A stretch of 53,565 nt of DNA from a virus (lineage: Duplodnaviria > Caudoviricetes), in IMG/VR virus record IMGVR_UViG_3300027728_001630, positions 1-53,565 of that record. One strand, given 5' to 3'. Both the position numbers and the translations under genes were made by a program. Shown one piece after another: positions 4,973 through 42,700 of this stretch (within the stretch, counting starts at the first letter, position 1; every line of letters begins with the position of its first letter). The notes beneath the pieces were generated by a model that was given only the letters and a program-made list of their open reading frames with translations, was not told where the DNA came from and ran no database searches.

Positions 4973-5068
4973 CACCCAGGTTCGATTGAGTGGCGCCCGA
5001 CCAACGCGGAACAGACCGGCACCTACGCGATGTTGCCACAATAGCCACTGATTTGCGCTTACAGTTAA

Positions 5069-5272: not shown

Positions 5273-5276
5273 TGCG

Positions 5277-5720: not shown

Positions 5721-5793
5721 GCGCTTGTCATGCTCGCGAGCTTCGCGGTAAGTTTCATCCTTTGGGTTGGCTTAATGCCGTGTTGACCATTTC

Positions 5794-5821
5794 AATCTAG
5801 CACATCTGCGGCGTATGTCAA
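5794..5821 (-). promoter_or_regulatory. sigma70-like promoter for the leftward cassette
   Basis: TTGACA-N16-TAGATT with TG extension. Confidence 0.55.
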
Positions 5822-5877
5822 CAGCCATACTTCACTTATTTTGCAGATAGCCAAAATGCCCGAGAGGGAGCAACCCG

Positions 5878-6759: not shown

Positions 6760-8431
6760 TGGCGGAGCGTCGTTCAACGAGTTCCTGGCCGCGTTCAAAG
6801 CGCTCCCGCCCGAGGAAAAGCAGGCAGCCGAGCAGTTCGCCGATCAAGTGTGCAGCGACATGCTGTGGGTTCCAAACCCGGGACCGCAGACGCAGGCGTA
6901 CTACTGCGAGGCGGATGAGCTGTTCTACGGCGGCGCCGGCGGAGGCGGTAAATCGTCCCTGCTTTGCGGGTTAGCCGTCAACGAGCACTACGACATCCAC
7001 TTGTTCCGCCGTGAAAGCGTGCAGCTGCGCGGACTCGTAAAGGAGCTTACGACGATACTCGGCTCGTCCGACGGGCTCAACAACCAGACAGGGCTATGGC
7101 GCCTACCAACAGGTCAGACCATAGAGCTCGCGGGCTTGAAGGACGAAGACGACAAGGTCGATTGGCAGGGACGGGCTGCCGACATGAAAGGCTTCGACGA
7201 GATCACGCACTTCAGCCGGTCGCAGTATGAATTCGTAATCGGCTGGAACCGCTCGACCAGAGAAGGGCAGCGGTGTCGGGTGGTCTCAACTGGCAACCCG
7301 CCGCTCGACGAGAACGGTCTGTGGGTCATCGAGTATTGGGGGCCGTGGCTCGACGAGACACACGACGATCCGGCCGCTCCAGGGGAGCTGCGCTACCCGG
7401 TGCGCGTGTCCGAGGACAGCGACGAAACCCGCGAAGTTTTCTACCGCACGAAGGAAGAGGCGTTAGCGCACCTCGCGACATTCTCTCGACCGCCGCGCGA
7501 CCTCGACGGGAATATCCTACCGCCGCGGTCGCGGACATTCATTCCAGCACACCTCGAGGACAACCCGGATCTGATGCGGTCGGGGTATGCGGCGGTTCTG
7601 GACCGCATGCCCAAGGAACTCCGCGACGCACTCCGCGACGGTAAGTTCAAGTCGTCGTTCGTCGACGACGAATTCCAGGTGATCCCGACAGAGTGGATCG
7701 TCGCAGCCCAGGCAAGGTGGACGCCGAAGCGGCCAGCCAACATCGGCATGACGTCGATCGGGGTCGACATCGCGCAAGGCGGCGCAGATCGGACGGTCCT
7801 GGCGCCACGGTATGGCGACTACTTCGAGCCGCTCATCATCAAGCCAGGCCGCGAGACGCCGGACGGACCGACCGCCGCCGCGCTGGTAATCGTCCACATG
7901 AGGGACGGAGCGACAATCAACATCGACCTCGGCGGGGGCTGGGGCGGTAGCTGCTACGACTTCCTGAAGGGCAACGACCTCGTCGACATCACCGGCATCG
8001 TCCCAGGGGCGGGATCAACCGGCCGGTCGCTGGACGGCAAGCTGTCGTTCCGCAACATCCGAGCCGAGATGTGGTGGCGGTTTCGCGAATCGCTCGACCC
8101 CACAAGCCCGTTCAAGATCGCACTGCCGCCAGATCCTGAGCTTCGGCGCGAGCTGGCCGCCTGTAAATGGAAGCCGATCTCTGGCTTGATGATCCAGATC
8201 GAGGACAAGGAACTCATCAAGAAGCGCCTCGGGCGATCGCCGGACAAGGGCGACGCCGTGGTGATGGCGTGGTTCTCGGGCGACACAAAGAAGCGGCGGC
8301 GCGAGGATAGGCCCAAACGGGGACAAATGCAGGACAAGGCCGATATCGGGGGCCGCAAGCTTCACTCGGACTACCGCCGCAGTCGCAGCAGCCAGGACGA
8401 TGAAGGCTCAGACGGCGGCGAGCAAGGCTAA
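6740..8431 (+). CDS. terL: terminase large subunit
   Basis: PNPGPQ, Walker A GGAGGGGKS, Walker B FDEITHF, TGNP, nuclease GVDIAQGGAD and SPDKGDA. Confidence 0.92.
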   Translation: MSNRQLSGGASFNEFLAAFKALPPEEKQAAEQFADQVCSDMLWVPNPGPQTQAYYCEADELFYGGAGGGGKSSLLCGLAVNEHYDIHLFRRESVQLRGLVKELTTILGSSDGLNNQTGLWRLPTGQTIELAGLKDEDDKVDWQGRAADMKGFDEITHFSRSQYEFVIGWNRSTREGQRCRVVSTGNPPLDENGLWVIEYWGPWLDETHDDPAAPGELRYPVRVSEDSDETREVFYRTKEEALAHLATFSRPPRDLDGNILPPRSRTFIPAHLEDNPDLMRSGYAAVLDRMPKELRDALRDGKFKSSFVDDEFQVIPTEWIVAAQARWTPKRPANIGMTSIGVDIAQGGADRTVLAPRYGDYFEPLIIKPGRETPDGPTAAALVIVHMRDGATINIDLGGGWGGSCYDFLKGNDLVDITGIVPGAGSTGRSLDGKLSFRNIRAEMWWRFRESLDPTSPFKIALPPDPELRRELAACKWKPISGLMIQIEDKELIKKRLGRSPDKGDAVVMAWFSGDTKKRRREDRPKRGQMQDKADIGGRKLHSDYRRSRSSQDDEGSDGGEQG

Positions 8432-24750: not shown

Positions 24751-27700
24751 ATGACGTCAACGACCGACAGCATGGACGAAATGCCCCCGTCGTTCCGCGA
24801 TGCGGAGCCTGCTGCCGATCAAGGACAATTCTCGACGCCGTCAGTGGTCTCGACGACGGGCGACGACGGCACGCCGCCGTCGCTTGCTGGTGCTGCACCC
24901 GGTCCAAGCGGAGCAAGCGCACCGAATTTCTTTTCCCCGACGGTCGAGTCCGCCGCACCGAATTTCTTTTCCCCGACGTTCGAGTCCGCAAAGGCGGACG
25001 GGTCGCTGGACGACGTCATCTACTCCAAGCTGATCCAGGCCGATACGGACCGGGTTACCAAAGGCGAGCGCCTAATTGACGGGCTGTTTGGTTACTTTGG
25101 TGTTGCCGACCCCAGTCGGCAGGCTGAGATCATCGCAGGCAAGGAGGCCGAGCTAAAGGCGATGTCCACTATGGACATGCTAGGTCTCATCCCAAGTCCA
25201 GCGCGCTTGCTGTACGGCATCGCCACGTCCGGCAGCACCAAGCCGATCCCGGAAGCCCTGGCCGAGGTGCTCGCTAGCCAGATGGGCGGGACGCTGGCGG
25301 CCTCCCGCAAGAAAACGTCCGACATCATCACGGCGGCGCGGAAGAACCCCGAGCGTGGCATCACAGACGACACGGTCTTCGGTGTTGCCCGTGCGGCGGC
25401 CGATGCCGGCATCCAGTCCGTTGTCGACATTCCCGTGTCGGTCGTCGAGGGCATTGGCATCGGTGCGTCGGTTGCTGGCTGGTCATTCGGCGCTGCCGAC
25501 CGGGTTGAAGACAATTCGGTCCAGGCCGTCGCCCGATGGGCGCGCGCTCAGGCCAAGGCGGCATTCCCCGGCGATCCGCTTCGCCAGGAAGACTTTGCCG
25601 TCATGCTGGCGCAAGGCGTCGGCTCCACGGCCGGGTTCTATGGTGTCCACGCCGGCGCTATGGCAGCCGGACTGAAGACACTGCCGGCGATGCTGGTAAC
25701 GGGCACGATCGGCGGCTTGGCAACGTCACCGCAGACCTACAACGATGCACTGAAGTCGCGCAAAGAGGGGCGCGAGGTGTCGGAACTGGCTCTTGCCTTA
25801 GCCTACGGAGGTGGCCTTGCTCTCGGCGGGGCCGAGGCATTGCCGATAGCGTTCAACATTCCACTCCCTGCTGTTGCCAAAAGCCGGGTGATGGCCTTGC
25901 TCCAAACCGTCGGCCGTGAAGCGGCCGAGGAAGGCGCGCAAGAGTTGGTCCAGTCTGTCGGGCAGGACCTGCTGGCCTATTATCTTCACGACCCAACGCG
26001 GCGCGTCGGCGACGATGCAAGCATGAGCATGCTGGTCGGCGCCCTATCGGGCGGCGGCATCAAGGCGGCAACCTTTGCATCAAAGGCAGCGCGCGACCGC
26101 GCCGTTGAGGAAGCCCGTCAGGCTGGCGGTATGCCACCGGTTGCCACCCAAGCCACACCCCAGGCATCACCCAAGACGCCGGGCAAGGGTGTCATCGACC
26201 TTGAAGCCTTAGGCAATGGCTTCCCCGCACCTCAAACGCCAGCCCCGGCGGCCAGCACGCTCGCCCCCGAAGACCGACTCCAGTTCTCAGACATTCGAGA
26301 CAGCCTGCCGAAGAACGAGCGCGGCGACGGTGACACGGCCTACCTCTACCAACTGACGGAACACCTGACCGGCAAGCGGTACTGGAACACGCTCGACGAC
26401 GCGGAGCGCGAGATTGTGTTTGGCGCATTGCGCCAGCCGGACTTTGGCCGGTCGCTTTTGGCGGTCGATCCCGCTCAGGTCCAGGCCGCAGCAGCCGGTG
26501 CCGTTCCAACCGCCACGAGCGCGGCAACGTCGCAGTCCGCACCGCCCGGCCGTGCCGCATCGCCCGCGCAGACCCCAGCAGCACCGGCCGCCGCAGGCCG
26601 CTCCCCGGCTACCGCGCCAGCGCAAGACCTGTTGCCAGCAGGCAAGGTCCCAGACGCGGCGATGGTCAAGCAAGTTCAGCGGGAAACCGCAGAGGCCGAT
26701 GAAGTCGCTGTTCTCGAGCGTGCGCGCGAAACGTCTGTCCCGCCGCCGCCCGGCGAAGACGGCCAGGTCTACACGCTCGGTTCATCGCAGGAATTCGACC
26801 GGGCGCTGAACGCCGCCAACCGCGAGCTCGCAACCGCTCAAGCAGCGCTTGAGGTTGCCGAAGCCAACATGAACGCGGCCAAACCCGCAAAGAAACGATC
26901 GGCTGGAAACGCGTTCGTTGCGGCCCGAACCGCAGTCGAAGATATAGAGCTTGAAATCGATGGGCTGACCAAGGGCCGCGAGCAAGCAGCCGCTGCCGAG
27001 GCAGCACAGGGCGATATGTTCGACCCTGCAGTTCAGGCTGCGCAAGCGCTCTATGACGCCAAGCGTCCTGCAGCGGATTGGTCGGTCGAGGCGATCGTTG
27101 CCGGCGCTGCAACCGGCCTTGTCCGGATCGATCCCGAGGGTGTGCCGCGGCGCGCGGCTGAGCCCGAAGGGCCAGAATTCGACCCTGTTGCAGCCGAGTT
27201 GGATGATGCTCGCCGCAAGATGAACCAGATCGCACGGGCAGCCGGTGGCAAATTGCGGCCGGCGCGGTTCGGCGAGATGCACGCCGACGGCGATCCGGTT
27301 GCTATTCGCATGCTGGTCGAGGGATTGCGCGCCATGCCCGAGGCTGCACTTACCGAACGGTTCGGCGACGTCGCCCGCCTTACGCGCGCGCGAAACCATG
27401 AAGTGAAGGTCGCCCGGGTTGCTCAAGGACTGATGGCAGCCGAGCTTGCCGCGCAAGACGAGGACTACAAGCTGTCGAGCCAGGCTCGAGACCTGATCGA
27501 GCAGACGGTCGAGGATGCGTTCAAGGCGGTTCCGGTCGAAGAGACGGTCGAGAAGGTGGCAGTCGACACGGGCATTGCGGCTGTGATCGACGAAGTCGAG
27601 AAGGTCACAAAGCACATTGACCCGGTCGATGTGGCCAGGACCGTCGGCGGTATGAAGGTTATCGTCAACTCCCTCAATCTGGACGACCTGCGAGCCCAGT

Positions 27701-30700
27701 ACGACGCAGAGGATGCGGAGAAGGCCCGAAGCCTCCCCGAGGCTGGGACACTGTCGGGCGAGGAAGTCGACAGCATTGTCGATACGTGGACCTACGTTCA
27801 AGAAATGCGCAAGGTTCCAAAACCGCAGAGGCTCAACTCATTCCTGCGCGATCTTGGTGGAATTGTTGACGAAGGTGGCGAGATTAGCGCCATTCTAGGA
27901 AAAAAGCGCAACTCAGGCGGTCTGATCAATGGTAGTGGTATTCCTCTTGATGAAGCGGCTCGCCGCGCATGGGATGCTGGTTTTATCACAACCGCACAGC
28001 GTCCGGGAATCGCGACGTTCCTTGATGTCTTGCGCGACGATTTGAACGACAGCCCTGTCGTCAGGCTGAGCGACATCTCGATCTTTGACGATATTGAAGT
28101 TGCCGTAGAAATGGGCAACGAACTGGCGGAGCTAGGGGTATATGATGCCAAAACCGAAAGCGAAGTCCGCGCGCGTCTCGCCAGCCCCCGAGCCCCTGTC
28201 GCTGCGAGCGAAAGCCGAAGTGGGGCGGTCGGTGGTGCGCAAGGTTCTGGCGAAGCGCTCGGGAACCTCGCCGAAACCTTCGCGGACGCCGCAAAAGTAG
28301 CCAGCCCCGCAACGCTAGTCGTCGAGGCACTATCCCAGCAGATCCCGGTCGAGAGTGTAACGTCGTCGCCCGGTATCACTACGATCGTGATGGGTTTCGA
28401 TCGGCTCAATGATAAGACCGGTGTTCGAGCACCAGACAAGACGGCAGATGAGATCGTATCGGAGGTGCAGCCAGCCACGGCGACAGCGCCAACCTCCAAC
28501 GCCGTCGTCACGCCTGCCGATGGCTGGCGGGACAATCTGGTCAAGACCAGAGCCTACGTGAAAGACCTCGGAATACCTTGGAGCGAAGCCCAGAAGGTAT
28601 GGGGCGACCAACAGGCGCTGTTCGACCTAATCGACCGCACGGCAAATCAGGGCACGTGGAAGGAGCAGTTCCGCGACGCAAACGCCATCATGAAACTCGA
28701 CGATGCAGGCGACGTGATCGGCTCGGTCATGTTCGACGGCAAGTCGTGGGCCGCTCTCGATGCCGAAGGCGGTGTCATTGGTAGGGCGTCAAGCCCAGCC
28801 GGAGCGAAGATACTGGTGAACCTTGCGGCATCGCCAGCGGCTGCCAGCGGCACAGGTCTTAAGCCTGGAACGCCTGAGTTCGACCAAGCCGCTCAGGCGG
28901 CTCGATCCGTTATGGATAGTGCCTCAGTCACGCCAGAAGCCGAGCGCGGCTTCAATCTCGCCATGCAGGCGGCCCGCGCGTTCGCGCTCCGCAACGGTAA
29001 GAAGACCGGCAACGAATACGGTGTGATGGGGTTCCCGAACGGAAAGACCAAAGCCAACAGCGTACCGGCTTCGGCGCGCAAGGCGAGCCAACTGCGGGTG
29101 GACGAAATCACCGCGCCCGAGATGTACCTCGGCGCGCCGAATTCGGTCGACTTCCACCACAACCACCCTGGATCGACATCGTTCAGCCGGGCAGACTACA
29201 CGCACGCAGCCCCGCGCCAGGCGCTCCGCCGCACATGGGTTCACGGCCACAACGGCTCCGAGTATTGGGCAGAGTTCGTTGTCCGAGATCCTGTTATCCT
29301 CGGCCAAGCCTGGGATATTGCCAACGAGGCGACCAAGGGCGCGCTCGGCAGCGACATCGACCTGCCTAAGTTCCGCACGCATCTTGTTGCGCAGATGATG
29401 CGCGAAGGTGGCGTAATCCGGTATGATGCCGTTGCGGGCTTCGAGTATGCGGCGGCAGTCCGCACCGAACAGCGCCTACGCCAAGCCATGGGCGACACAT
29501 GGACTGAAACCGTGGCTGCGATCGCAGCCCTCAAGGAGACCGCCGATGGCGTACTGGATCGACCCGCCCGACCCTCTGGACCCGTTGGAGATGTGGCAGG
29601 GACACCTGGAAGACCTGCTGACGATCCAGGACCCGGACCCGGACGTGCAACAAGCGATCCTCGAAGCGCAGAACCAGATCGCCGAGAAGTCGGGGCAATC
29701 CCAAGCAACGACATCACCGTTGCCAGGACCGACGAGTCCCTCGTCGACGGCCTCATTGCCACTTACGACAAGCCCGTCAGCGATGCCGCCCGAGCCCATG
29801 CCGTCGCCCTTGAACGAGTTGGAACCGACACCAAGTTATTCCACGACCTGAAGGCCAAGATCGGCAAGCTGGTCAAGGCCGACATTGATGCGGTATCGTG
29901 GCTCTACGGCAAGGCCGCGCCGAAGCGCACCAAGGCTCTGCAACTCGACACGATCGAAGCGGAGTTCCAGAAGCGGATCGGCACCGAGGCAGATGCGGCC
30001 ACACTGTCTGGCAACCGTGCGATCGTAACCAGGGACACCGAGGCCAATGCAACTGACCGACGCCGAGCAGAGAGAGATCGACGGGTACGCGCGAGCGAGA
30101 CGCCGGTTCTTGATGGAATCATCCCCCGAGACCTTCAAGGCGATGGAGAAGGCCAAGACGCTGGAGGGTCATCTCGAGGAGACGGCGATCGAGGCGAAGG
30201 AGATGTTCGACCTGACGCACGCTCGGCTGAAAGCGGAAGCGATGAAGGAACAGGAGTTCCAGGCGAGAGTGGAGCTTCTGCAGCAGGCTCCGATCGTGGC
30301 AAGCGAGATCGTGATGAGCGAAGTGATACTGGTGCTGCCATCCTCGCAGCCAAGCGCCAAGCCGATAAAGAGCGAAAAGACCGTCGACGCGAAAACTACC
30401 GGATCACCGAAAACGACCCCATCGGCGAAGGCGGTCCCAAAGAAAAAGTCCGCGCCAACATCGCCGCCATCAGGCTCGTAAAAGAGCTTGCCGAGTCCCC
30501 TGACCGTAAGCCGACGCTGGCCGAAAAGGGCGTGCTGGTCCGCTACGTCGGCTGGGGTGCATTCGCTCAGGACGTGTTCGCCACTCACAAATCAGAGTGG
30601 GCCAAGGAACGCCAGGAACTGATCGACCTCATGACGGCGGAGGAATACGCCAGCGCCAGTGCGTCGACGCTGAATGCCCACTACACATCGCGGAGCGTCA

Positions 30701-33700
30701 TCGATGCGATGTGGGCCGCCGTCGAGCATCTCGGCTTTACCGGTGGCAGGGCGCTGGAGCCATCGTCTGGCGTCGGCCATTTCATCGGCCTGACACCGTC
30801 CAACCTTGCCAAACAGATCGACTGGACCGCCGTCGAACTCGACACGATCACCGGCAAGATCGCGAAGTACCTCTACGAGGGGTCGGACGTTCGCATCTCA
30901 GGGTTCGAGAAAACCAACCTGCCGCCGAATTTCTTCGACCTTGCGATCTCGAACGTCCCGTTCGGCAACTTCACGCTGACCGATCGCAAGTATTCCAAGC
31001 TGCTGATCCACGACTACTTCTTCGCCAAGGGACTCGACCTTGTTCGACCGGGCGGCATCGTCGGGTTCATCACGTCGGCTGGCACGATGGACAAGCCGAG
31101 CACGACGGCCCGTCGTCTGATCGCAAGCAAAGCAGACCTTGTCGGCGCCATCCGACTGCCAGGCGGCCGCACGGGTGCGTTCGCTGGCAATGCCGGCACC
31201 GAAGTAACGACCGACATCATTTTCCTGCGCAAGCGCCTGGAAGGCCAGGAGCAGTCGCCGGAGACCAGGGAGTTCCTGGATAGCGTCACGGTCGAGACGC
31301 CCGACGGGCCGACCAAGATCAACGCCTACTTCGCCAAGCGCCCGGAGATGATGCTAGGCGAGATGCGCCTGACGGGCTCAATGTACCGCGACAAGAGTCC
31401 GGTTCTGGTCGGCTCGACCGACAACATCAAGCAGCGCATTATCGACGCCGCACAGAAAATGCCAGCGAACGTGTTCGTCGAGCGCGGCACCGAGACGGTC
31501 GACATTGGCGACACCAAGGAACTGTCCGATGCAGCGGTCAAGGAAGGCGCGTTCTTCCTCAAGGGCGGCAAGCTGTTCCAGAACGTGCTCGGCCAAGCTG
31601 TTGCGCAGAATGCAACAGGTGCGAAGCTCAAGCGCGCCCGCATGCTTCTCGACATGCGCGACATCGTCAACGACATCATGGCGATCCAGTCGGGCCGGGG
31701 CAAAGGCAAGGCCGAATCCCTGCCGGCGCTGCGCAAGAAATTGAACACGGCCTATGATGCTTTCGTGAAGGCGTTCGGGCCGATCAATAAGAAAACGATC
31801 TCGATCCAGAAGCGCAAGATCAAAGGCGAAGAGCGCGAGATCACGATCGTCAAGTTCCCGAACCTTGCCGATTTCCGCGACGATCCGGACAGCTACAAGG
31901 TCTCGGCGATCGAGAACTATGACGCTGAAAATGACACGGCCACTAAGGCCGCCATCTTCAGCGCCGACATACTGCAGCAATACGTCCGCCCCGACATCAC
32001 CGGGCCCGACGACGCGCTCGCTGTTTCTCTGAACGAGACCGGCAAGGTCGATATCAAGCGCATCGCTGAGATGATGCAGACGTCTGAGGATGAGGCAGCC
32101 GCCAACCTCGGCGAGCGCGTGTTCCTCAATCCCGACGGCGAGAAGCACGAGATCAGCGCGGTCTATCTGTCGGGCGACGTCGTCGGCAAGCTTGAGCAAG
32201 CGACGGCAGCGGCCGAGATCAACCCGGCGTTCCGGCGCAACGTCACGGCACTTGAAGCGGTGCAGCCGACAAAGCTGTCGCGTGTCGACATCCGAACGAC
32301 GTTCGGCGCCCCCTGGATACCAGCCGAAGTGCTGAACGCCTACATCGCGAACGTGCTCAACATCCGCGGCGAAGTGAGGTTTGAGCCGATCACGTCGAGT
32401 TGGATCTGGACGTCCGCCAACGTTTACACGACGCCGTCCGGCCAAGCCGCGTGGGGCACCACAAGGGCCGAAGCGGACGATATCGTCATTGCGGCGCTGA
32501 ACAGCAAGAAAATCACGGTCTACGACAAGGATGAGAAGGGCAACCCGGTTGCTAACCGGACCGCCACCGAAGATGTTGCGGCCAAGGTCCGAGCTGTTTC
32601 CGAGGCATTCACAGGCGACCCAACACTCGGCATGCCCGGCTGGGTCTGGGAAGACGAAGCCCGCGCGCAGATGCTTGAGGACTTATACAACGATAAGTTC
32701 AACCGGCTCGTCACCACGGTCTTTGACGGGTCGCACTTGACGCTGCCAGGATTGGCAACGTCGATCGCACTGCCGAATGGCCAGACAGTGCCGTTCTCAC
32801 TGCGGAAGCACCAGAAAGACGTGATCTGGCGGGCGATCCTGACCGGAAACGTCCTGATGGATCACGCCGTTGGCGCGGGCAAAACCTATGCCATGATCGC
32901 GGCCGGCATGGAGATGAAGCGGCTCGGACTGATCCGCAGGCCTATGTATACCGTGCCGAACCATATGCTTGAGCAGTTCTCGCGCGAGTTCCTCCAGGCC
33001 TACCCCAACGCCAAGATTCTCGTCGCCGAGAAGAAGTATATGGAGGCGAAGAACCGCAAGGCCTTTGCGGCTCGGATTGCTGCCGACAATTGGGACGCGA
33101 TCATCATAACGCACTCAGCCTTCGGCAAACTGCCGATGTCGCCAGAAGCCTATAAGGAGTTCCTGGAGGAACAGAAGGCAGAAATCGTCGAGGCTTGGTT
33201 GACTGCCAAGGGGGAGGCTGAGGATAACGGCAAGCCGTCGCGCGACCCAACCGTCAAGCAGATTGAGCGCAAGAAAAAGGCGATCAAAGCCAAACTCGAT
33301 AAGCTGATGGCGACGGACAAAAAGGATGCCGGCGTCGAGTTTGAAGAGCTGGGTGTCGACTTCCTGATCGTGGACGAGGCCCACTGCTTCCCGAGTGAAA
33401 CGCTGGTCGACACCGACCGGGGCCAAGTCTCTATTGGAGAGATCGTCGAAAACAAACTGCCAGTGCGCGTTCGGAGCGTTGATCACGCTACTGGCGAGAC
33501 TGTTTGGAGGCCTGTCACACAGTTCTGGAAGTACCAGAAACAACAGAAGAAACTTGTTGTAATTCACACGTCGTCAGGGCAAAAGGTTACGTGCACAACG
33601 AACCACCACGTTTTTGTTGACGGACGGGGCTATGTCGAGGCCAAGACTATCGTTGCCGGGGATGCCGTGCGCATCTTGCGGAGTGGCGTTTCGTCCCGCG

Positions 33701-36700
33701 GACTCATGGGCGGCCAAGACCGCGAAGTATTGCAGCACCGCGTGCAAAGCCATGGGTATGCGGAAGCCGCGACCCGACAGAACTTGTCAGATGTGCGGTT
33801 TGACGTTCGCTCAGGAACAGGCAACTTCGCGGACCGTGCAGAAGTTCTGCAGCATAGGGTGTTACCACTCGCACCAAGAGATCAGCGCAGCGCCGATAGT
33901 GTTAGCCTGCGAGACGTGCAGTCGGGAATTCACGCCGGTCGCGCGAGGGCAAGGTGGTCGCGCTCAGAGATTTTGCTCGAAGCCGTGCAAGGGTCTCGCG
34001 CACCGCAAGCCAGTGGCGAAGACGTGCGAGGTTTGTTCCAAGCCGTTCATCTTCCGCAGCAGCGGATCGACCAACAACGCGAAGAGACGGTTCTGCTCAG
34101 GCTCCTGTTCGGCCCGATGGCGGATGGCACAGCCGGGTCGGACCGAGTTGTCGGCGGCTCCAATGCACGCCGCCATGAAGCAGAAATGGAAGACGGACAA
34201 GGAATTCGTACAGCGCGTATCGCAAGCATCATCGGATCGAATGAGGCTGCGGAATCCAATGCGATGCGAAGCCACTCGGTCCCGGATGGCGAAGTCGCTT
34301 TCTGGTCGGACGTTTCTGGCTCGGGGTGGCAACGGACAGACGACCAAGCCACAGATTATGTTGGCCGAGGCGTTGGGCGCGGCACCGATAGAGTTTGCGA
34401 TTTCAACCAAGCCGGTGCGTGGGCAGTTCCCATCGCTCCCGAGCAACTACAAGGTCGACGTGGCCTTGCCGAGCATCCGGCTGGCTATCGAAGTGGACGG
34501 GCTCTCTCATCGCACGAGGAAGTGGAAGTTCCTGGATCGACGGAAAACCGAGATACTGAATGCTCTCGGGTGGTCCGTGTTGAGGTTCTCGAACCAGGAA
34601 GTGCTGACGAACCTGCAAGCTGTTGTCGACCAGATCAATTCGTTTACGACATCGGCGTCGAGGGAGAGCACAACTACTTCGCCGACGGCGTCCTAGTCCA
34701 CAACAGCTATAAAAATCTTGACTACCAGTCGCGTCACTCAAATATCAAAGGAATCGGCGTTAAGGGGTCCGAGCGCGCGACCGACCTTTTCATGAAGATC
34801 CGCCACATCGAGAAGACCAAGCCGGGCCGCTCGACAATCTTTGCCACCGGCACACCCATGTCGCGGTCGATGGCCGAAGTCTACACGATGCAGCGGTATC
34901 TGCAGAGCGCGACGCTGCGCGAGTACGGCATCGAAAAATTCGACACCTGGGCCGCCACGTTCGGCATGGCCGTCACCAAGACAGAGCAGGGCGTAAGCCT
35001 GAAATTGAAGGACGTCACGTCGTTCTCGAAGTTCATCAACGTGCCGGAACTCAGCGCGCTCTACTCGCGCGTGACCAGCAGCGTGACCGCGAACGATCTC
35101 AATCTGGCTCGGCCAGAGCTCAAGGGCGGCCAGCCGCAGGTTGTCCTCGCCGAAATGGATACCGCGCAAAGCCAAGCCACAGACGAACTCATTGCAAAGA
35201 TGGAGGCGCTCAAAGGTCCGGCAGAGAAGGGCGAAGACAACCATCTGTCGCTCTTCACCAAGATGCTGCAGGTCGCGACCGACATCCGTCTCTACGATCC
35301 GAGCGCCGAGTTCAACCCTAACGGCAAGATCGCCAAGGTCGTCGACAACGTCTTCAAGATCTATAGCGAGGGCAAGGCGCCAGCGCTCGGCCAGTTGATC
35401 TTCTCCGACATGGGGCCGCCGAGTTCGCGAAGCAAAGCCGCACCGGCAAAGAAGCCGCGCGACGCTGGCGACGAAAGCGCGATCGACAAGATCCGCGACA
35501 GTCTCATGGTCGATTCCGATGACGATGCCGATGGCGATCCAGACGCCGAAGGCAACGCCGAGATCGAGTCGATGCTTGAAGGCAAGTTCAACCTCTACCA
35601 GGACATCAAGGATCGTCTGGTTGCACGAGGTGTCCCGGCGAAAGAAATCGCCTTCATCCACGACGCCAAGAACGACCAGCAAAAGGCTGAGATGTTCAAG
35701 GCCATGCGGGCTGGCAAGATCCGCATCCTGCTCGGCTCGACAGCCAAGATGGGCGTTGGCACCAACGTCCAGCGACTTCTGACCGCGTTGCACCACATAG
35801 ACGCGCCGTGGAACCCGGCCGACGACGAACAGCGCAACGGTCGTATCCTGCGCCAGGGCAACGAGAACAAGGAAATCTCGATATTCCGCTACGTCACGGA
35901 GGGCTCAGCCGACGCTTACCGGTGGCAGATCCTCGCACGTAAGGCAGAGTTCATCGCGCAGTTCCGAGCCGGCGCGCGCGGATTGCGGGACGCCGAAGAC
36001 ATCGACAGCCCGATCCCGGAAGCCTCTACGCTCAAGGCGCTCGCGACTGGCGATACGCGGATTGTGGAGTTTGCAGAGCTCACCCGCGAATTGCGGGTGA
36101 TGGAAGCCGCCAAGCGCGGCCACGAGCGGACCTACATTTCTGCGGCTCTCTTGCTGGCCGAAACGAGGGCCGAACTCGCTTATCGCGAGAAAGCGCTTGC
36201 CCGGTACGTCCAGGATGCTCCGCTGGTCACCGACCTACGCGGCGATGCGTTCAAGGTCCGGCTCGACACGGGCACTCTCAATGGCGAAGTCACCGAACGC
36301 AAAGCGGCCGGCGAGGCTATCCGTAGCCAAATCCTGGCGGAAATGAAAAACCACAGGGGCCGTGACGCGAACGAAATCGAACTCGGCGCCATGAGCGGCT
36401 TCAAGATGGTCGCCAGCGCTCGCAAGTCGGACAACGGCATTGTCGTCCGGTTCTCTCTGGAAGGGGCGGCAAGCTACCAGCCGGCCGACGGCAACAAGGT
36501 GATCACGGGCGAATCCGATGCCGTCGGCATCGTGAGGCAGTTCGAGAACATCCTGATCGGCATCCCAGGCGTTCGCAAGAACACCGAGAACTTCATTGCA
36601 CGACAGACGGCGGAGCTTCCTCGTCTTGAGAAGCAGTCCGTGGCGACGCCGTTCCCGCGCGCCCTTCAGTTCGCCACGATGAAGGCACGCTACGAGGAAC

Positions 36701-39700
36701 TCGAGGCCGCCCTAAAGCCCAAGCCGCCAGAGGCACCACGTCCGTCTGCTGTATCTGCCATTACGGCTGATGACGATGACGGGTCGATGGCGTCGTTCGT
36801 TGGCGCGACGGATCGCGGCGATGACGTGTTCGCCCGCGCGAGGGCCATGGAAGAGGCCGGGAAGGACCGCTACGCGATCTGGGCCGACACCATGGCGTTC
36901 CGTGGCGCCGACGGCCAATGGCTCCGTGAAGTCGACGACAGCCAGCAACGTGCAGATGCGGCTCCGTCTAAGGGTATTCTGGGGCTTCTGCAGTCTGCCA
37001 TCAATATGGTGGCTGGCACCGGCAGAAACGAGCCAGCGGCCAACCTGGGCGGCGCGGATGGCGTTGGCGGCATTGCCGACGAAGCATCCGACGATCCAGA
37101 GATGCGCGACACCTCGCCAGTCTTCGGCGACGTGCTCGCCCGGCTGACCGAGAAGCGCTTGCGGATGTCCGTCGAAGAGCGCCGCGCGCGGCCGCCGTGG
37201 GAGGACTACGACGTTCCCGAAGCCGACCAAGTCGTGGTCGACGCCACGGAGCGAGCGCAATTCTCTGCGGCAAGCATTCTATTCGAGACCGAAGGGTTCC
37301 AGCGGGTCAGCCCATTGAAGCCCGGCACGGCGCTTGATCCGATCGCGACCGACAAGCCCGGTCCGCTGCTGCGGGAGTTGCAGCAATTCGGGTTCGCCGA
37401 AGTGCAGATGGCGAAATCTGACAGCGCCCGCCGCGCCGCCGCCGACGCCATCAAGGCGCTGCGGCTGATTTCAGAAGTGACAGGGCTTGCCCCGGCGTCT
37501 CTCGGCCGGTCGGCGCCGACCGTCCTAGTGTTTGATACGGCTGCAGACGCCAACGCATCATTCACTTCCGGCCGGCTGTTCGGCATGCAAGTTGCCCCGT
37601 TTGAGATGACAGTTGACGACGGAGTTGGCGGTCGGGCGGTGGTCCATGAGTTCGGGCACATGGTCGACTCGCTCGCGAGTGGCACGCCACAGCGGGAGAT
37701 GACCAGCCGGGCACCCAACTGGCGCAGCCGCGTCAACCTGCTTGCGTCCTACGGCTTGCCGATGCTGGCGACCGGCGGCGTGCCGATCCCTGGCGCCCAT
37801 CTTGCGCTGAAGGCGCTGGATCGCACCGCGTTCAACGGCACCTTGCTTGCTGATCGCGTCCGCACATCCACACCATGGATGTCACCCGGTGTCCGTGCCG
37901 GCTTCGAGAGAGTGCTTGCCGTCCTGGCCGATGGACAGGGGGTGGCGACAGGTGTGCCGGAGGCTGTCACCCGGTGGCGCGAGTCCTATGCCGCTTACAA
38001 GTCGGCGCTTCAGGAGCAGGCTTACGAAACCTCGAGCGCAGAAACGATCATTGAAGATGCCGTCGCGGCCGGCGATCTGTTGCGTGCGCTGGATAACGAC
38101 GTCGAAACGCTCCGTTTTGCTGCGCTCGACGGCGACACGACCACGATCCAGGCCAACAGCCAACGGCTTCAGGATCAATTGCAGGCGGTAGGTGACCGGC
38201 TTGAAGCGGTTACGGCCTCGACGGACGCCGCTCGAGACCTGCTGGTTGAAACCAGCGCGCTGATGACGGTTCTCGAGAAGTCGACGGCAGGCGAAGCGGG
38301 TTCACCCCCGATCGTCGGGACCTACCTTTCCCGTCCCGAGGAACTCTTTGCGCGAGCGTTTGAACATTACGTGGCGCAAAAGGCCATAGAGCGTGGCTAT
38401 CCAAAGGATCAGATAGACGAGATATTCGCCGGTCATGACATTGGTCCTTTTGCGACGCCGGGAACCGACGCTTCAAGGGAGATAATTGGGGGCTTCGAGC
38501 AGATCTTCAAGGCGGTCGTCACCGACGGGCGTGGTCACCTGTACTTTACCGAGCCGCCGGCCGCCGCCGCTGGGCCTGACGCTCAGATGGCAGAGCTACG
38601 CCGCACACTGAAAAGGGAACTGAGAAATGTCCAAGGCCGAGCCAATGGCGCTGCTGTCGGGGTTGATCGCCAGAGCGGAGAAGTTGCCGAAGGGGCGGTC
38701 GGACCGGAAGGCGCTGTTGAGGGACGCGCAGAAGGCGCTCGAGATCGCGCTGTCACCGCCATCGTCAGCGACAAGCAACTTGCCGATGCCTTCCTCTCGG
38801 CCGAACTCAGGCCGGACGCCGTCAAGGTTCGCGCCGTCCAGCAAGGGTTCACGACCCGGGCAACCGGCGACGTCAGCAGCCTCGAAGCCTTCCCCAGCGA
38901 CGGCACCTTCGGACTCCATGCCGCCCTCGCTCCGCCAGCCCCCCGTCAAAGCATAGGCGAGCGGATGCTGGCCTGGGCCGGCCTTGCCCCGGCAAAGGTC
39001 GAGTCCGAGCCCGCACTGCGCATTCGGCAGATGCGGTCGATCCGTATGCCAGACATTGTCGACTGGCACGATCCTGCCGCGTGGGCGACTGCCATGGCGA
39101 CCGGCGTCTACGACGGTCCAGAGCTACTGACGCGGTTCGTCACCGAGTGGCAGGCAGTAAATCAGCCGGTAATGCCACGAGACGTGACAGACCACCGGTT
39201 CTCGATGGCTATGGCCGACGAACTCTCGCGCCTGGGCTACGAGGCTGTCGTCTACCGCGGCGCCGATCGGGCCGAGCGGGTCATGGTGTGGGAGCCGGAG
39301 CGCATTCGATCGGCCGACGATGCGTTCCACCCGGACGCGGTGGGTGAGATCGGGCTCAATGCGTCCGAGCCGTTCGTCGAGCAGGATCTGCGCGATCGGC
39401 TGAACCGGATGCTTCGCGAAGAGGGGATGTCCGAAGAGGAAACGACGACGTTCGACGATGACGGCAGCATGGCGTCGCTCGTGCCGCGCCGGACGAACGC
39501 CGACGGCTACGTTCTGATGCTGCCATACGAGGCAGAGTGGGGCGACAACCGGTTCAATCCGGACGATGCGGCTCGAGCCAAGGCTCGAATGCGCGAGGTG
39601 CTTGATCTCGACCCGGCCACCGCGTCGTGGGACGATCTCGTGTCTGGCTGGCGCGATGCCAACCAGATCATCGCAAACATGATGTATTTCGCGCCGGATA

Positions 39701-42700
39701 ATACGGTCGACACGATCCGGGAACGTGCTGCGACAGTCTCGCCATCGGCCAATATCCCCTATAGCCTTTTGTCTAACTATGCCTACCTAAAACGCCTTGA
39801 AGAACGCCGTAGCATGGCCGAATGGCAAGAAGCGTACGATCGCAACGTATTCTTCAGCGACACCCCACACGCCGAGTGGCAGGACTACATCACGCTGGGC
39901 CGTGCGATAGCCAACAAGTGGATGTCGGTCGGCAACAGGCCACGCCTGAGCGACCTCGTCTTGATGGGCGATGGGCTTGAGCCGAAGGCGCCGAAGAAGC
40001 GCAAGCGCGGCGCGCGCCCGGGCGAAGTCGGCGAGACCATGAAGTCCGGCTTCTACTGGCAGTCGGGCCGCCTGTTGAAAGAAATCCCCGACCCGATCTT
40101 TGAAATGGGCTGGATTGCCGTCAACAACTGGATGCGCCAAGCGGGTGTCTCCGTTGCAGAGACGACGTTCCTTGAGTTTCCCATGGTCGACACGCCGACC
40201 ACACGCGACGAGGTTGCCCGTCTGATCGCAAAGGGCATCTTTGACTTTAAGGTGCGGGTCAACCGGTGGAATCCGGAGCGACCGCGCACGGGTCGTGGGC
40301 ACGAGGACGGCTACGATTACGGCGGCACACGTGCGGCTGACGGGCCGCGCATTCCGGGCCGCGGCATCTATCTCGAAGACCGATTGCTGTTCCCGAAGCG
40401 GTTGCGCGGCGGCGCCGAGTTCTTCTTGGGCCAGTTCGACAGCTACCACTGGAACGAGGAAGGCACTTGGTCATCGCTCCGAGGATCGATCCGCGAAGTT
40501 CCTGGCTTCGGGCAGATGCTCGTGGACGAGAAAAGCCAGACCTTCTTTGAGCAAAGCGCCGCCGCCGAATTCAGCCCTGACCGTGCAAGTAAGTTCACGC
40601 CCGAAACGCCGATCGACGAAACCTACGTGCGCGTCATGGCGCGGCAGATCCTGCTGCGCGCGGTAAAGGAAAACGTCGACAGCATAGGCATCTCTACGAT
40701 CGAAACGACGGCGCGCATCCAGGCCAACGCCAGCGCATTGTTCTTCTACGGGCAGATCGTGCCGAGCTTGCAGAAAGAACTGCGCCGGATCTCTGGTGAT
40801 GGGTCGCTGACGCTACAGCAGATCGAATTGCCGAAGGCCATGGGTGCTCCAAAGCGCGAGAAGCCCTACACGGTCTGGGCGGTTCGTATCCCCGACAACG
40901 TCCGCCGCCAGATCAAGGCGAACGGCCTGCCAATGATGAATCTGGCGCCAACCCCGGCCGGCAATCAAAGGCTGACCGCACAAGCGCAGGCCAAATACCC
41001 AGCGATCGCGGCCGATCTTGAGCAGCGCTTGCGGCGGATGCTTCCCGCCGACGTTGCAGTCGAGTTCGCGCATCGCCTATTTGATAAGCGCGGTCGCGAG
41101 CGGTATGGCCAGTTCCGCCCTGACATCAAGCTGATCGAGGTCGCGCTATCTCGCGGTGCCGACCAAGCCATGATGTCGGGCGCGCACGAGGTGGTTCACG
41201 CCCTTCGTGAGGCTGACGCATTCACCGATGCCGAGTGGGCGTTGCTCGTCGAGCGGGCCCGCAAGGTTGGTGTCGAAACGGCCATGGACCGTGACGGCGT
41301 CACCGAAGCCTACCGTGATATGTTCAAGGCGCGCGCCCGCAAGATGGGCCTTGCCAAGCCAGATGCGGATGCCTTTGTCCAGCGAATGATGGACGAAGAG
41401 CTTGTTGCGCGGCTCGCCGAGCAATACTTCGGGCCGCAGAAGGCTCGCTTCGGCGCGACGATCGATGCGCTGCTGCAGCGGATCGGAGACATCCTCGACG
41501 CTATCGCAGCGGCATTCAACGGCCAAGGCTTCATGTCGGCGGATGCCGTATTCCGGCGGATGGAGCGCGGAGCGCTGGCGAAGCGTGTTCAGCCGACACG
41601 GCCGGGCCCGGCACGCTCGACGCTCAAGACGACCAATGCGGACGACGTGCGCGCTGTCAGCGATCTATGGAGCCAAGCGGCACTGGCTGATGGCGACAAC
41701 CTTTCCAGCATGGAGAAGGCCGAAAACATCGTCGAGGTGCAGGCGTTCCTGCGGTCGTTCAAGCCCGTGCGCCGACCGATCACGGCCAAGCTTGATGTTG
41801 TCGCCGCGAGCGGCGGATCGAACGTCACCTACTTTGTCGTGCCCAAGGGTCGAGACGCATACGACCGGGGTGGTTCCCGGCAAAGCGTTGCTGAGTTCAT
41901 CGTGAAGCCGGCCCGTCGCAAGGCGGTGCGTGGCGTCGAGGTCACGAATGCCAGCGTCACGGCCGACTATCAGCGTCAAGGCATCGCCACCGCCGTCTAC
42001 GACATGATCGCCGAGGATATGGCCTCCGTCGGCGGGCTGTCCCCTACCACGAGCGACAGTCTTGAGCCGGGCGGCAGGGCGTTCTGGTCTGCTCGCGATC
42101 CGAACCTTGAGCTCGACAGCGACGAAGACCGCCGGTTTGCGGCCATGATGTTCGACGCCATGCGTGGCGAGACATCGGCATCGCTCACGGCCCGTCCGAT
42201 CGTGATGTCGCAGAGCGTGGCCGAGGCTGCCGTCGATCTAGGTGCCGGTCGCCGCGTTGCATCCGACCCGCAGCAGATCAATCGTGTTCTGCGTCTTGCC
42301 GCGACGGAAATGAAGGTGGTGCCGGACAACGTCCAGATCGGGGCCGTCCAGCTTCTGACGCCGGTATTCTCGGACGGCAAATTCACCGGTCTGGTCGACG
42401 TGCGCGTCGCCGGGCCCGGCGGCAGATCAGCCGGGACGTTCCGTATTGCTTGGAACGTCATCAGAAATTCCAGCGCTGTCTACCACCGGCAGAGCCGGAC
42501 GATCCTGTTCAACACGATCCCGGGCGTGGTTGAGAACCAAGCTAAGGCCGTCCCCGGTGAGGTTTGGCATGAGTCCGTCCACAGCTTGTGGGACACCGCT
42601 ATTGTCGGCGAGGTCCGCGATCGGTTGCTTGGGCATGCGAAGCTCCTGAAGGTTTTGGACATCGATATCAGCACGTATTCGCAGGCGAAGGGTAGCACAA

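What the first reader, a model, noticed from the sequence alone, without database searches (positions are those of the whole stretch)
28145..38956. A second gene layer: RBS-equipped +1-frame genes overprinted on the linkers of a 7867-aa polyvalent virion protein
Seen: five ORFs lie wholly inside 24751-48354, all in the +1 frame (28145-28300, 29546-29851, 30047-30481, 33632-34696, 38627-38956), most with a Shine-Dalgarno-like motif. Over the cores of the four small ones, G/C-ending codons move to the +1 frame while the host frame fills with CGA/GGA/GAT codons and reads as R/D/G-rich filler, yet never hits a stop. The four small ones sit at domain boundaries: after an unnamed domain, after the JAB-like HNHP domain, before the methyltransferase, and after the LPD1-like zincin. 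Inference: two-gene cassettes (enzyme plus small partner) were captured into the giant ORF and the partners were kept as nested genes. They could be cognate inhibitors or chaperones that protect the producing cell until the enzymes are packaged and injected without them.
Basis: partly seen in the sequence, partly recalled or inferred. Interest (0 to 1): 0.92.

Follow-up and report, generated by a model that had tools for sequence, protein, structure and literature searches.

The report
Hidden genes inside a giant phage gene
A 7867-residue phage protein gene carries at least two, probably three, real smaller genes written in a shifted reading frame: a selfish DNA-cutting enzyme hidden in a self-splicing protein insert, and small helper-like proteins kept across many related phages.

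Summary
The ORF 24751-48354 (7867 aa) is real, and all five nested ORFs are in its +1 frame. They are the only five places in 23.6 kb where codon usage favours +1. They are not one kind of thing.

- D (33632-34696) is a Vsr/DUF559-type homing endonuclease gene inside an intein (33385-34704) that splits the helicase. The host frame is kept open by selection: 0 of 20000 synonymous shuffles stay open. In 79 of 80 related viral loci the endonuclease sits the same way.
- C (30047-30481) is a TnpV-family gene. It lies in +1 just upstream of the DarB-like methylase in 34 of 56 related loci, including cultured phages where it is unannotated. It is under purifying selection in +1, folds confidently, and is predicted to bind the host protein (0.75; best control 0.01).
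- B (29546-29851) is probably real. It has the strongest codon signal, an AGGAG-ATG start, and one syntenic +1 homologue.
- E is open.
- A looks like an ordinary linker.

The conserved nested partner genes were in none of the papers my searches returned. No translation is shown.

The parts
24751..48354 (+). Host gene: 7867-aa polyvalent protein. It lies after the portal, terminase and VanY-type genes of a podovirus-like provirus.
   Evidence: Pfam finds ResIII/Helicase_C/SNF2, an intein, LPD1, LPD23, GNAT, ART-PolyVal and LPD38.
28145..28300 (+). A: +1 ORF of 51 aa. Probably not a gene; it looks like the +1 reading of an ordinary Ala/Ser/Gly linker.
   Evidence: Weak +1 codon margin of 8.6. 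Host GC3 is 0.59-0.60, inside the range of five ordinary linkers at 0.55-0.70. No family or homologue.
29546..29851 (+). B: +1 ORF of 101 aa. The core is about 55 aa (29546-29710); the tail is read-through over real host sequence. Probably a real nested mini-gene.
   Evidence: Largest +1 margin, 36 nats. Host GC3 of 0.33 is lower than in all 6796 control windows. AGGAG lies upstream of the ATG. A syntenic +1 homologue sits after the same host domain in L141: SW score 54, with 0 of 5000 shuffles reaching it. AF2 gives pLDDT 81.6 from a 2-row alignment. No other homologue was found.
30047..30481 (+). C: +1 ORF of 144 aa. It is a TnpV-family (PF14198) four-helix protein with its core at aa 1-98. 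It is a conserved nested gene directly upstream of the methylase N-terminus.
30391..33384 (+). Host frame: DarB-like N-terminal domain, adenine methylase and the first half of the SF2 helicase, up to motif II (DEAH). This is the N-extein.
31786..31974 (+). Host residues 2346-2408: the predicted docking surface for the product of C.
   Evidence: interface residues 471-533 of the segment that starts at nt 30376.
33385..34704 (+). Intein of 440 aa in the host frame. It starts with Cys1 right after DEAH and ends with HN followed by Ser. Its central ~315 aa read as unstructured filler.
   Evidence: Pfam Intein_splicing 50.4 bits (cut-off 35.8), plus Hint. Junctions read. The site is empty in 48 of 48 related loci that cover both flanks.
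33632..34696 (+). D: +1 gene of 354 aa. It has FCS-type zinc fingers plus a DUF559/Vsr-like nuclease and is a homing endonuclease gene. Its last 18 codons overlap the intein C-terminal splicing block.
34705..36690 (+). Host frame: second half of the helicase. This is the C-extein.
38627..38956 (+). E: +1 ORF of 109 aa with an amphipathic core of about 45 aa. Status open.
   Evidence: +1 margin of 10.0. Host GC3 of 0.45-0.53 is below the five ordinary linkers. AAGG lies upstream. No homologue or family.

Best explanation
The five +1 ORFs are a mixed set.

(1) D is a mobile Vsr/DUF559-type homing endonuclease gene. It lies inside a contiguous intein that interrupts helicase motif II of the DarB-like module. 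The host ribosome reads straight through it in frame 0, producing filler that is removed with the intein by protein splicing. The endonuclease is made separately from the +1 frame.

Frame 0 is kept free of stops by codon choice. A frame-0 stop needs an NNT codon of the endonuclease followed by a codon that starts AA, AG or GA. NNT and NNC are always synonymous, so any gene can be made open in its -1 frame at no protein cost. I infer that this is why the nested genes are always +1 relative to the host.

(2) C is a conserved nested gene for a ~95-aa four-helix TnpV-family protein. It starts at its own ATG and SD in the linker in front of the methylase. Its product most likely binds the helical region between methylase and helicase of the same giant protein, as a subunit, assembly factor or regulator.

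(3) B is probably a second nested mini-protein (helix-loop-helix) that follows the HxH metalloprotease-like domain.

(4) E is undecided, and A is most likely a chance ORF in a linker.

Shown: coding signal, homology, selection, synteny. Inferred: independent translation, binding, function.
For: D:
- Pfam DUF559 at 51.5 bits and zf-FCS.
- 259 homologues, the best at 59% identity and E 6e-93.
- The nuclease residues are invariant in the 28-row alignment.
- The family profile hits PDB 3hrl (9e-11) and 3r3p, I-Bth0305I (0.003).
- Synonymous shuffles of D give a mean of 9.7 host-frame stops, and 0 of 20000 are open. None of the 71 codons that start AA/AG/GA is preceded by NNT, against 47 of 282 other codons.
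- In 79 of 80 viral loci with a relative of D, the frame in which the endonuclease is +1 stays open across the whole match.
- In 62 distinct intact copies there are 0 host-frame stops, against 702 expected and 1260 in the third frame, at GC 0.30-0.62.
- An intein C-junction motif lies next to the endonuclease stop in 68 of 73 distinct loci.
- Pfam finds an intein or Hint domain in 8 of 10 host segments scanned.
- The site is empty in 48 of 48 related loci that cover it.

C:
- TnpV at 40.6 bits, cut-off 27.
- 40 library hits, 36 of them 69-160 aa long.
- An HMM built only from those small proteins plus C hits 29 of 56 related loci. All 29 hits are in +1 and inside the host ORF, and 28 of them end 15-249 nt upstream of the methylase match. 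After iteration the count is 34 of 56.
- In 16 pairs of intermediate divergence, mean differences by +1 codon position are 0.27/0.25/0.37. Amino-acid identity is higher in +1 than in the host frame in 15 of 16 pairs.
- The nested ORF is present and unannotated in Erwinia phage PEp14 and Klebsiella phage LASTA.
- AF2 gives pLDDT 94.6 and pTM 0.83.
- An SD-like motif precedes the start in 19 of 29 distinct loci, against 18.9% of all +1 ATGs.
- +1 stops lie 2-7 codons upstream of the ATG in many loci.
- The complex model scores 0.75 in each of three runs against a best control of 0.01. Runs agree in at least 71% of contacts and partner pLDDT is at least 80. That mark was reached by 58 of 80 solved complexes and 2 of 110 mismatched pairs. 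My own alignments were used, so these counts hold only roughly.

B.
Against: - No translation, RNA or proteomic evidence was obtained for any nested ORF.
- D has no SD-like motif.
- For C, 21 of 56 related loci show no TnpV-like ORF. P1 DarB has none either.
- Pairs used in the substitution test are not phylogenetically independent, and the very divergent set is saturated.
- The iterated HMM includes its own hits.
- C has no structural neighbour in PDB, so its function is unknown.
- A complex-model pass is not a measurement.
- B rests on one distant homologue at 27% identity over 51 aa. phmmer did not find it. Short helices often get high pLDDT.
- Hydrophilic linkers are open in +1 anyway, so ORF length adds nothing for A, B and E.
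- G-rich first codon positions of linkers can mimic +1 codon usage.
Confidence: 0.8

Rival explanations
1. Relics, not genes. The +1 segments are remnants of domains that once lay in frame and were thrown out of frame by compensated indels, or are insertions that are no longer expressed. On this view only the host frame matters today.
For: The host frame is the one that must stay open. 11 of 73 distinct relatives of D have stops in the endonuclease frame while the host frame is intact, so decay does happen. No expression data exist.
Against: C is kept in +1 in 34 of 56 loci across 34-57% host identity and is never in frame 0 or +2. Its substitutions pile up at +1 third positions. It has conserved ATG and SD starts. 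For D, 62 intact copies keep invariant catalytic residues.
Confidence: 0.07
2. Programmed +1 ribosomal frameshifting. Ribosomes translating the giant ORF slip into +1 and produce truncated fusion proteins that end in the TnpV-like or B peptide. There would be no independent initiation.
For: All nested ORFs are in one frame, +1. No direct evidence for the start sites exists.
Against: +1 stops lie only 2-7 codons upstream of the nested ATG in the window (C, E) and in many C-family loci, which leaves almost no room for a slip site. SD-like motifs are enriched, 19 of 29 against 18.9%. Database homologues of C start at the same Met.
Confidence: 0.05
3. Chance ORFs in GC-rich hydrophilic linkers. 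Linkers poor in hydrophobic residues lack T at codon position 2, so they are open in +1. G-rich first positions mimic high GC3 in +1.
For: All 9 hydrophobic-poor host stretches have 0-1 stops in +1. A has a host GC3 like ordinary linkers and a low-complexity basic product. A and E have no homologues.
Against: Five other linkers show no +1 codon signal. Homology rules it out for C and D. For B, the host GC3 of 0.33 is below all 6796 control windows, and there is a syntenic homologue.
Confidence: 0.6
4. One reading: the nested proteins are cognate inhibitors, immunity proteins or chaperones. They would silence the adjacent enzyme domain in the producing cell and be left behind at packaging.
For: C is predicted to bind the host protein next to the methylase: 0.75 against a best control of 0.01; the mark was reached by 58 of 80 solved complexes and 2 of 110 mismatched pairs. 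B and C sit at domain boundaries.
Against: The predicted site is a helical region after the methylase core, not an active site. Inhibition and packaging were not tested. D is a homing endonuclease and does not fit. PADLOC was not searched.
Confidence: 0.25
5. Assembly or sequencing indels created false frame changes. On this view the true protein switches frame and there is no overlap.
For: The record is a metagenomic provirus.
Against: Frame 0 is open through 354 codons of D, where 9.7 stops are expected (0 of 20000 shuffles open). The same holds in 79 of 80 independent loci and in complete genomes of cultured phages.
Confidence: 0.01

Closest known systems
Inteins with out-of-frame or antisense homing endonuclease genes. 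Sources: cyanobacterial dnaX intein with a +2 LAGLIDADG, bioRxiv 10.64898/2026.09.14.751524 (abstract and sections 11 and 17 read); actinobacteriophage inteins with antisense LAGLIDADG, antisense VSR-like and frame-3 EndoVII-like genes, bioRxiv 10.1101/2025.01.02.630785 (passages read).
   Same: A contiguous intein whose in-frame centre is unstructured filler, with the endonuclease in another frame. The host frame is kept open. The proposed origin is invasion of a mini-intein by a free-standing endonuclease gene.
   Different: Here the endonuclease is Vsr/DUF559-type, on the sense strand and in +1. The passages I read report VSR-like genes only in antisense or with split inteins. Here the arrangement is the rule for a large family (79 of 80 viral loci), and the host is a helicase inside a giant polyvalent protein.
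Fractured genes: split inteins with a free-standing Vsr-like endonuclease gene between the halves (Dassa et al. 2009, PMC2677866; abstract and passages read).
   Same: The same endonuclease type. The 3' end of the endonuclease gene overlaps the C-intein coding region: 6-69 bp there, 8-68 nt here. Found mostly in phages.
   Different: There the host gene is broken by a stop and re-joined by trans-splicing. Here the host frame has no stop, so the intein is contiguous and cis-splicing.
I-Bth0305I / EDxHD homing endonucleases (PDB 3r3p; PMC3239194, seen in the search listing only) and the DUF559 structure 3hrl.
   Same: The nuclease core of the D family matches both by profile.
   Different: I-Bth0305I lies in a group I intron. 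D has extra N-terminal FCS-type zinc fingers and lies in an intein.
ShiLan insertion: a hidden out-of-frame HNH endonuclease in a phage methylase gene (PMC11855218; abstract read).
   Same: A gene read in another frame inside an insertion that the host gene reads through without stops.
   Different: ShiLan has no splicing domain, so the filler stays in the protein. It resembles C and B in layout, but those are not nucleases and are vertically conserved at one site.
Lambda Rz/Rz1 embedded spanin genes (recalled from general knowledge; no call).
   Same: A small gene wholly embedded in the +1 frame of a larger gene, with its own start. The two products bind each other.
   Different: Different proteins and function. 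Here the host is a multi-domain virion or anti-restriction protein, and binding is only predicted.
P1 DarB and the methylase-helicase dyad of polyvalent proteins (Iyer et al. 2017, PMC5512222; passages read).
   Same: The host module has the same dyad with the N-terminal LPD36-type domain. Relatives are annotated 'DarB-like antirestriction'.
   Different: P1 darB has no nested TnpV-like ORF, and Ulx gives no match. The paper's main text has no occurrence of TnpV, overlapping, intein or frameshift.

Membership tests
Intein (Hint superfamily) | N-terminal Cys/Ser/Thr as first residue | tested here: met
   Cys at host aa 2879, directly after DEAH.
Intein (Hint superfamily) | C-terminal His-Asn followed by Cys/Ser/Thr of the C-extein | tested here: met
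   The intein ends in HN followed by Ser, at host aa 3317-3319.
Intein (Hint superfamily) | Profile match to the splicing domain above the curated cut-off | tested here: met
   PF14890 at 50.4 bits against a cut-off of 35.8, matching profile positions 6-155 with a large internal insert. PF01079 Hint at 31.1 against 29.7.
Intein (Hint superfamily) | Protein splicing activity | not testable with these tools
   Needs expression of the extein-intein-extein construct.
Split intein / fractured gene (Dassa 2009) | Host reading frame interrupted by a stop between the N- and C-intein parts | tested here: not met
   There are 0 stops in the host frame across D and across 62 intact relatives.
Vsr-like / DUF559 (EDxHD-type) homing endonuclease | Profile match to the nuclease domain above the cut-off | tested here: met
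   PF04480 at 51.5 bits against a cut-off of 20.6. The family profile hits 3hrl at 9e-11 and 3r3p at 0.003.
Vsr-like / DUF559 (EDxHD-type) homing endonuclease | Conserved acidic/His catalytic residues | tested here: met
   E287, D289, H293, D302 and K305 are invariant in 28 sequences. Their catalytic role is inferred from the family, not tested.
Vsr-like / DUF559 (EDxHD-type) homing endonuclease | Sporadic presence at a conserved host site, with empty alleles | tested here: met
   48 of 48 related loci that cover both flanks lack the insert. Among the 56 methylase loci, only L005 carries it.
Vsr-like / DUF559 (EDxHD-type) homing endonuclease | Site-specific cleavage of the empty allele | not testable with these tools
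   Needs an in vitro assay.
TnpV (PF14198) | Profile match above the gathering score | tested here: met
   C scores 40.6 bits against a cut-off of 27 over aa 2-94. All 7 short homologues scanned (92-235 aa) also reach the cut-off, at 27.4-58.1 bits.
TnpV (PF14198) | Encoded on a transposon as a separate gene, as the founding Tn4451 member (recalled) | tested here: not met
   Here it is nested in a phage gene. The homologue P0146 is also nested in +1 in L142.
Functional overlapping (nested) gene | Purifying selection in the alternative frame | tested here: met
   For C: 15 of 16 pairs. For D: homology and intact catalytic residues. For B: one homologue only.
Functional overlapping (nested) gene | Evidence of translation | not testable with these tools
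   No ribosome profiling or proteomics was available.
DarB-like methylase-helicase dyad | N-terminal LPD36-type domain, adenine methylase and SF2 helicase in one chain | tested here: inconclusive
   Helicase Pfam hits. Matches of 42-50% identity to genes annotated 'DarB-like antirestriction'. The methylase domain itself gave no Pfam hit at E<=0.01.

The most novel reading that the evidence does not exclude
Giant polyvalent virion proteins of Bcep22/PEp14-like phages carry a conserved second layer of +1-frame genes in their linkers. Each would be translated from its own start, and its product would dock onto the neighbouring domain of the very protein whose gene it is written in, so that enzyme and partner are inherited as one indivisible stretch of DNA. 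The +1 register would be universal because it is the only one in which the host frame can be kept open by NNT-to-NNC synonymous changes alone. The same rule would explain why a whole family of Vsr-type homing endonucleases lives in +1 inside contiguous inteins.
Probability: 0.4. Interest if true: 0.85.

Novelty: new variant of a known kind. Interest (0 to 1): 0.78.

Why it matters
1. Gene callers forbid nested same-strand genes. A conserved protein family is therefore missing from the annotation of cultured phages: PEp14 and LASTA were checked here, and Ralstonia, Pseudomonas, Agrobacterium and Sinorhizobium relatives are listed.
2. If the C product binds the DarB-like module, it is an unrecognised component of a widespread phage anti-restriction machine.
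3. The endonuclease result turns a rarity into a rule. A large family of Vsr-type homing endonucleases sits in +1 inside contiguous inteins, with hundreds of expected stops removed by codon choice. That provides the contiguous form next to the 'fractured gene' form.
4. The NNT/NNC argument gives a simple, testable reason for the frame bias of nested genes.

Tried and rejected
- No close relatives of the giant gene exist in the phage collection (megablast).
- tblastn of C, of P0146 and of the host domains next to B and E against phages or plasmids gave no match.
- The search for related loci gave nothing with D alone, with the B-flank and E-flank domains in viral contigs, with the B core, or with the B-flank in genome contigs.
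- B gave only itself and E gave nothing in the word-indexed protein search.
- PHROGs found nothing for A, B or E.
- The ESM Atlas gave nothing usable for B. For E the best score of 0.78 is at noise level.
- phmmer of A, B and E against 24920 six-frame segments gave no hit.
- An all-frames BLAST of alternative-frame segments is not discriminating, because conserved host domains give hitch-hiking hits in every frame.
- The codon-position test over all C-family pairs is saturated.
- Foldseek of the C model against PDB gave no hit at E<=0.001.
- The idea that C corresponds to P1 Ulx is rejected. ulx lies downstream of darB and does not match the HMM.
- Low host GC3 at 27772-28062 and 43711-44142 does not mark nested genes. 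The host frame reads as real protein and the other frames are full of stops.
- Rfam and tRNA scans found nothing.
- None returned a paper on nested genes in polyvalent or DarB-like proteins, or on sense-strand +1 Vsr-type endonucleases in contiguous inteins. Supplements were closed, so supplementary tables of the two preprints may list cases I could not see.
- PADLOC and NCBIfam were not searched.
- No sequencing-run or read-laying run was made.

Full report
**What the window is.** The window is an IMG/VR provirus record of 53.5 kb at 62% GC. It has a T7-type portal, a terminase and a VanY-domain protein upstream of one 7867-aa ORF at 24751-48354.

In the host frame Pfam finds an SF2 helicase (ResIII, SNF2, Helicase_C) interrupted by an intein. 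It also finds LPD1, LPD23, GNAT, ART-PolyVal and LPD38.

The methylase-helicase part has 56 relatives in viral contigs at 34-57% identity and 117 in cultured-phage records. In those records the gene is annotated 'DarB-like antirestriction', for example in Erwinia phage PEp14 and Klebsiella phage LASTA. Only this core (host aa ~1830-3980) is shared with those loci.

**Checking the observation.**
- All five ORFs exist and are in the +1 frame.
- Length alone means little. The +1 frame has 192 stops in 7867 codons and seven open runs of 143-171 codons. All 9 hydrophobic-poor host stretches have 0-1 stops in +1.
- Composition is what counts. A codon-usage scan of the whole ORF finds +1 favoured in only five places, and they coincide with the five ORFs. 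+2 is never favoured.
- Host third-position GC is 0.75 on average. It falls to 0.33 (B core), 0.35 (C core) and 0.57 (D), lower than in any same-length control window.
- A (0.60) and the E core (0.53) lie at the 6.5% and 2.5% tails.
- Five other hydrophilic linkers keep GC3 at 0.55-0.70 and show no +1 signal. A (0.59) falls inside that range. B (0.48), C (0.50) and E (0.45) fall below it.

**D is a homing endonuclease gene inside an intein.** The +1 product has FCS-type zinc fingers and a DUF559 (Vsr-like) nuclease domain. It has 259 homologues in the word-indexed protein search, the best at 59% identity.

The host frame has an intein from Cys2879, directly after helicase motif II (DEAH), to HN followed by Ser at 3317-3319. 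That is nt 33385-34704. D begins in the last ~17 codons of the N-terminal splicing domain and stops 8 nt before the intein ends. Its last 18 residues are the +1 reading of the C-terminal splicing block. Between the two, the host frame reads as filler.

Selection on that filler frame is clear:
- Synonymous shuffles of D create 9.7 host-frame stops on average, and none of 20000 shuffles is open.
- None of the 71 codons that start AA, AG or GA follows an NNT codon, while 47 of 282 other codons do.

Several homologues in the alignment carry the same odd Thr/Ser-rich tail, which suggested that the arrangement is general. I searched viral contigs with the family alignment. That gave 272 confirmed loci, of which the best 80 were kept.
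- In 79 of the 80, the frame in which the endonuclease is +1 stays open across the whole match, inside ORFs of 489-2255 aa.
- In 62 distinct intact copies there are 0 host-frame stops, against 702 expected from shuffles and 1260 in the third frame, at GC 0.30-0.62.
- Eleven of the 73 distinct copies have stops in the endonuclease frame while the host frame is still open.
- An intein C-junction motif lies next to the endonuclease stop in 68 of 73.
- Pfam finds intein or Hint domains in 8 of the 10 host segments scanned. The exteins are SNF2/ResIII-type helicases in 7 of the 10, Helicase_C alone in one (L108), a terminase in one (L098), and no hit in one (L113).

At the window's site, 48 of 48 related loci that cover both flanks are empty. 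Among the 56 methylase loci, only L005 carries the intein and the endonuclease. That is the distribution expected of a mobile element.

The family profile matches PDB 3hrl and, weakly, I-Bth0305I (3r3p).

**C is a conserved nested gene.** C matches Pfam TnpV above the cut-off. It has 40 hits in the 1.84-billion-protein library, and 36 of them are 69-160 aa long. Two long hits that I scanned have no TnpV match and look spurious.

In 12 of 12 related loci inspected by eye, a helical ORF lies in +1 just upstream of the methylase N-terminus, where the host frame is Arg/Gly/Glu/Pro filler.
- An HMM built only from the small database proteins plus C hits 29 of 56 loci. All 29 hits are in +1 and inside the host ORF, and 28 of them end 15-249 nt before the methylase match.
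- After iteration the count is 34 of 56, with one minus-strand hit elsewhere and 21 loci without a hit. No hit is in frame 0 or +2.
- Five loci without a hit have other +1 ORFs at the same spot.
- Over all pairs the substitutions are saturated.
- In 16 pairs with nucleotide difference 0.03-0.42, differences by +1 codon position are 0.27/0.25/0.37. The +1 protein is more conserved than the host reading in 15 of 16 pairs. These pairs are not independent.
- SD-like motifs precede the chosen start in 19 of 29 distinct loci, against 1267 of 6702 (18.9%) of all +1 ATGs.
- +1 stops lie a few codons upstream of the ATG, which argues for initiation rather than frameshifting.
- The ORF is present and unannotated in PEp14 and LASTA.
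- One database homologue that looked stand-alone (P0146) is itself nested in +1, upstream of the same motif, in a MAG contig. So I cannot say that free-standing forms exist.
- AF2 with a 30-row alignment gives a four-helix model at pLDDT 94.6. It has no PDB neighbour at E<=0.001.

A complex model of C with host residues 1876-2475 scored 0.75 in each of three runs, against a best control of 0.01. Runs agree in at least 71% of contacts and partner pLDDT is at least 80. That mark was reached by 58 of 80 solved complexes and 2 of 110 mismatched pairs. My own alignments were used, so the counts hold only roughly. The interface falls on host residues 2346-2408. This supports binding but does not show it.

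**B, E and A.**
- B has the strongest codon signal, AGGAG upstream of its ATG, and a host GC3 of 0.33.
- The protein libraries hold no relative of B. Nested ORFs are rarely called as genes, so this says little.
- The one metagenome locus with a relative of the preceding HxH domain (L141, 32% identity) has a 53-aa +1 ORF with an SD at the same place, over host filler.
- That ORF aligns with the B core without gaps: SW score 54 against a shuffle mean of 22.1 (sd 4.3), with 0 of 5000 shuffles reaching it. The other 19 window-by-L141 nested pairs score z<1.
- AF2 from the two rows gives a helix-loop-helix at pLDDT 81.6, which is weak evidence.
- E has an amphipathic core and a low host GC3, but no relative anywhere I could look.
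- A reads as a basic low-complexity peptide over an ordinary linker.

**A wider pattern.** The same frame scan on 53 distinct related giant ORFs (202,256 aa) finds 73 +1-signature segments against 5 in +2. Beyond the TnpV-like cluster of 30 there are many singletons.

Part of this asymmetry could come from G-rich first codon positions in linkers, so I do not count the singletons as genes.

My explanation for the frame rule is an inference. With the nested gene in +1, a host-frame stop needs NNT followed by AA, AG or GA. NNT to NNC is always synonymous, so the host frame can be cleared of stops at no cost to the nested protein.

**Comparison with what is known.**
- Out-of-frame and antisense endonuclease genes in contiguous inteins are in print or preprint. 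These are the dnaX +2 LAGLIDADG, and antisense LAGLIDADG, antisense VSR-like and frame-3 EndoVII-like genes in actinophages.
- Vsr-like endonuclease genes with split inteins, overlapping the C-intein by 6-69 bp, were described in 2009.
- An out-of-frame HNH gene in a non-splicing insertion of a phage methylase is also known.
- D is therefore a new variant: sense-strand +1, Vsr-type, contiguous, and family-wide.
- For C and B, my searches and the text of the polyvalent-protein paper showed no report of nested genes in these proteins.
- The nearest analogue I can name is lambda Rz/Rz1, which I recall rather than looked up.

**Verdict.** D and C are real genes at the sequence level, B is probably real, E is open and A is probably chance. 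No translation was shown for any of them.

Noticed in passing
L138 5624-5944 (Erwinia phage PEp14, NC_016767) and L139 5630-5959 (Klebsiella phage LASTA, NC_054965): The TnpV-like +1 ORF is present inside the annotated 'DarB-like antirestriction' CDS of two cultured phages. It is not annotated in either record.
   Followed up: partly
L142 6001-6375 within the ORF 2808-8363: The database protein P0146, a 124-aa TnpV-family member that looks stand-alone, is nested in +1 in a 1851-aa ORF of a Labrys MAG contig, directly upstream of the methylase N-terminal motif. Some members of Pfam TnpV may therefore be nested ORFs. The host ORF there also changes frame near 8159-8363, through a frameshift or an assembly error.
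   Followed up: partly
L141 5661-6050 and 2847-3383: The metagenome giant ORF that holds the B homologue has further +1 segments with a coding signature over host filler. The 5661-6050 product looks like a real ~100-aa protein.
   Followed up: no
L026, L027, L031, L038 (9552-9968 or the equivalent) and L042 9579-9992: Loci without a TnpV HMM hit carry a different +1 ORF at the same position, just upstream of the methylase. These could be very divergent TnpV-like genes or replacements.
   Followed up: no
L059, L062, L064, L097, L105, L106, L109, L112, L125, L126, L131: In 11 of 73 distinct relatives of D, the endonuclease frame has stops while the host (intein) frame stays open. The endonucleases are decaying inside inteins that are still read through.
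   Followed up: partly
L073 1986-4589: The host segment with a +1 Vsr-type endonuclease intein also has an in-frame LAGLIDADG_3 match at its start. This suggests a second, classical intein close by in the same helicase gene.
   Followed up: no
window 27772-28062 and 43711-44142: Host third-position GC drops to 0.36-0.46, yet the host frame reads as ordinary protein and the other frames are full of stops. These may be recently acquired modules with a different codon usage.
   Followed up: partly
window 26782-27801, 31378-32445, 34738-35796, 44953-46005 (minus strand): Four antisense ORFs of 339-355 aa lie inside the giant gene. The antisense frame -0 has only 80 stops in 7868 codons, and antisense frames give strong hitch-hiking BLAST hits over conserved host domains. 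I took them as by-products of GC-rich coding sequence.
   Followed up: partly
L043-L057 (the group at 34% identity): A whole branch of the methylase-helicase giant genes shows no +1 signature at all and no TnpV-like ORF. The nested gene is therefore clade-specific.
   Followed up: no
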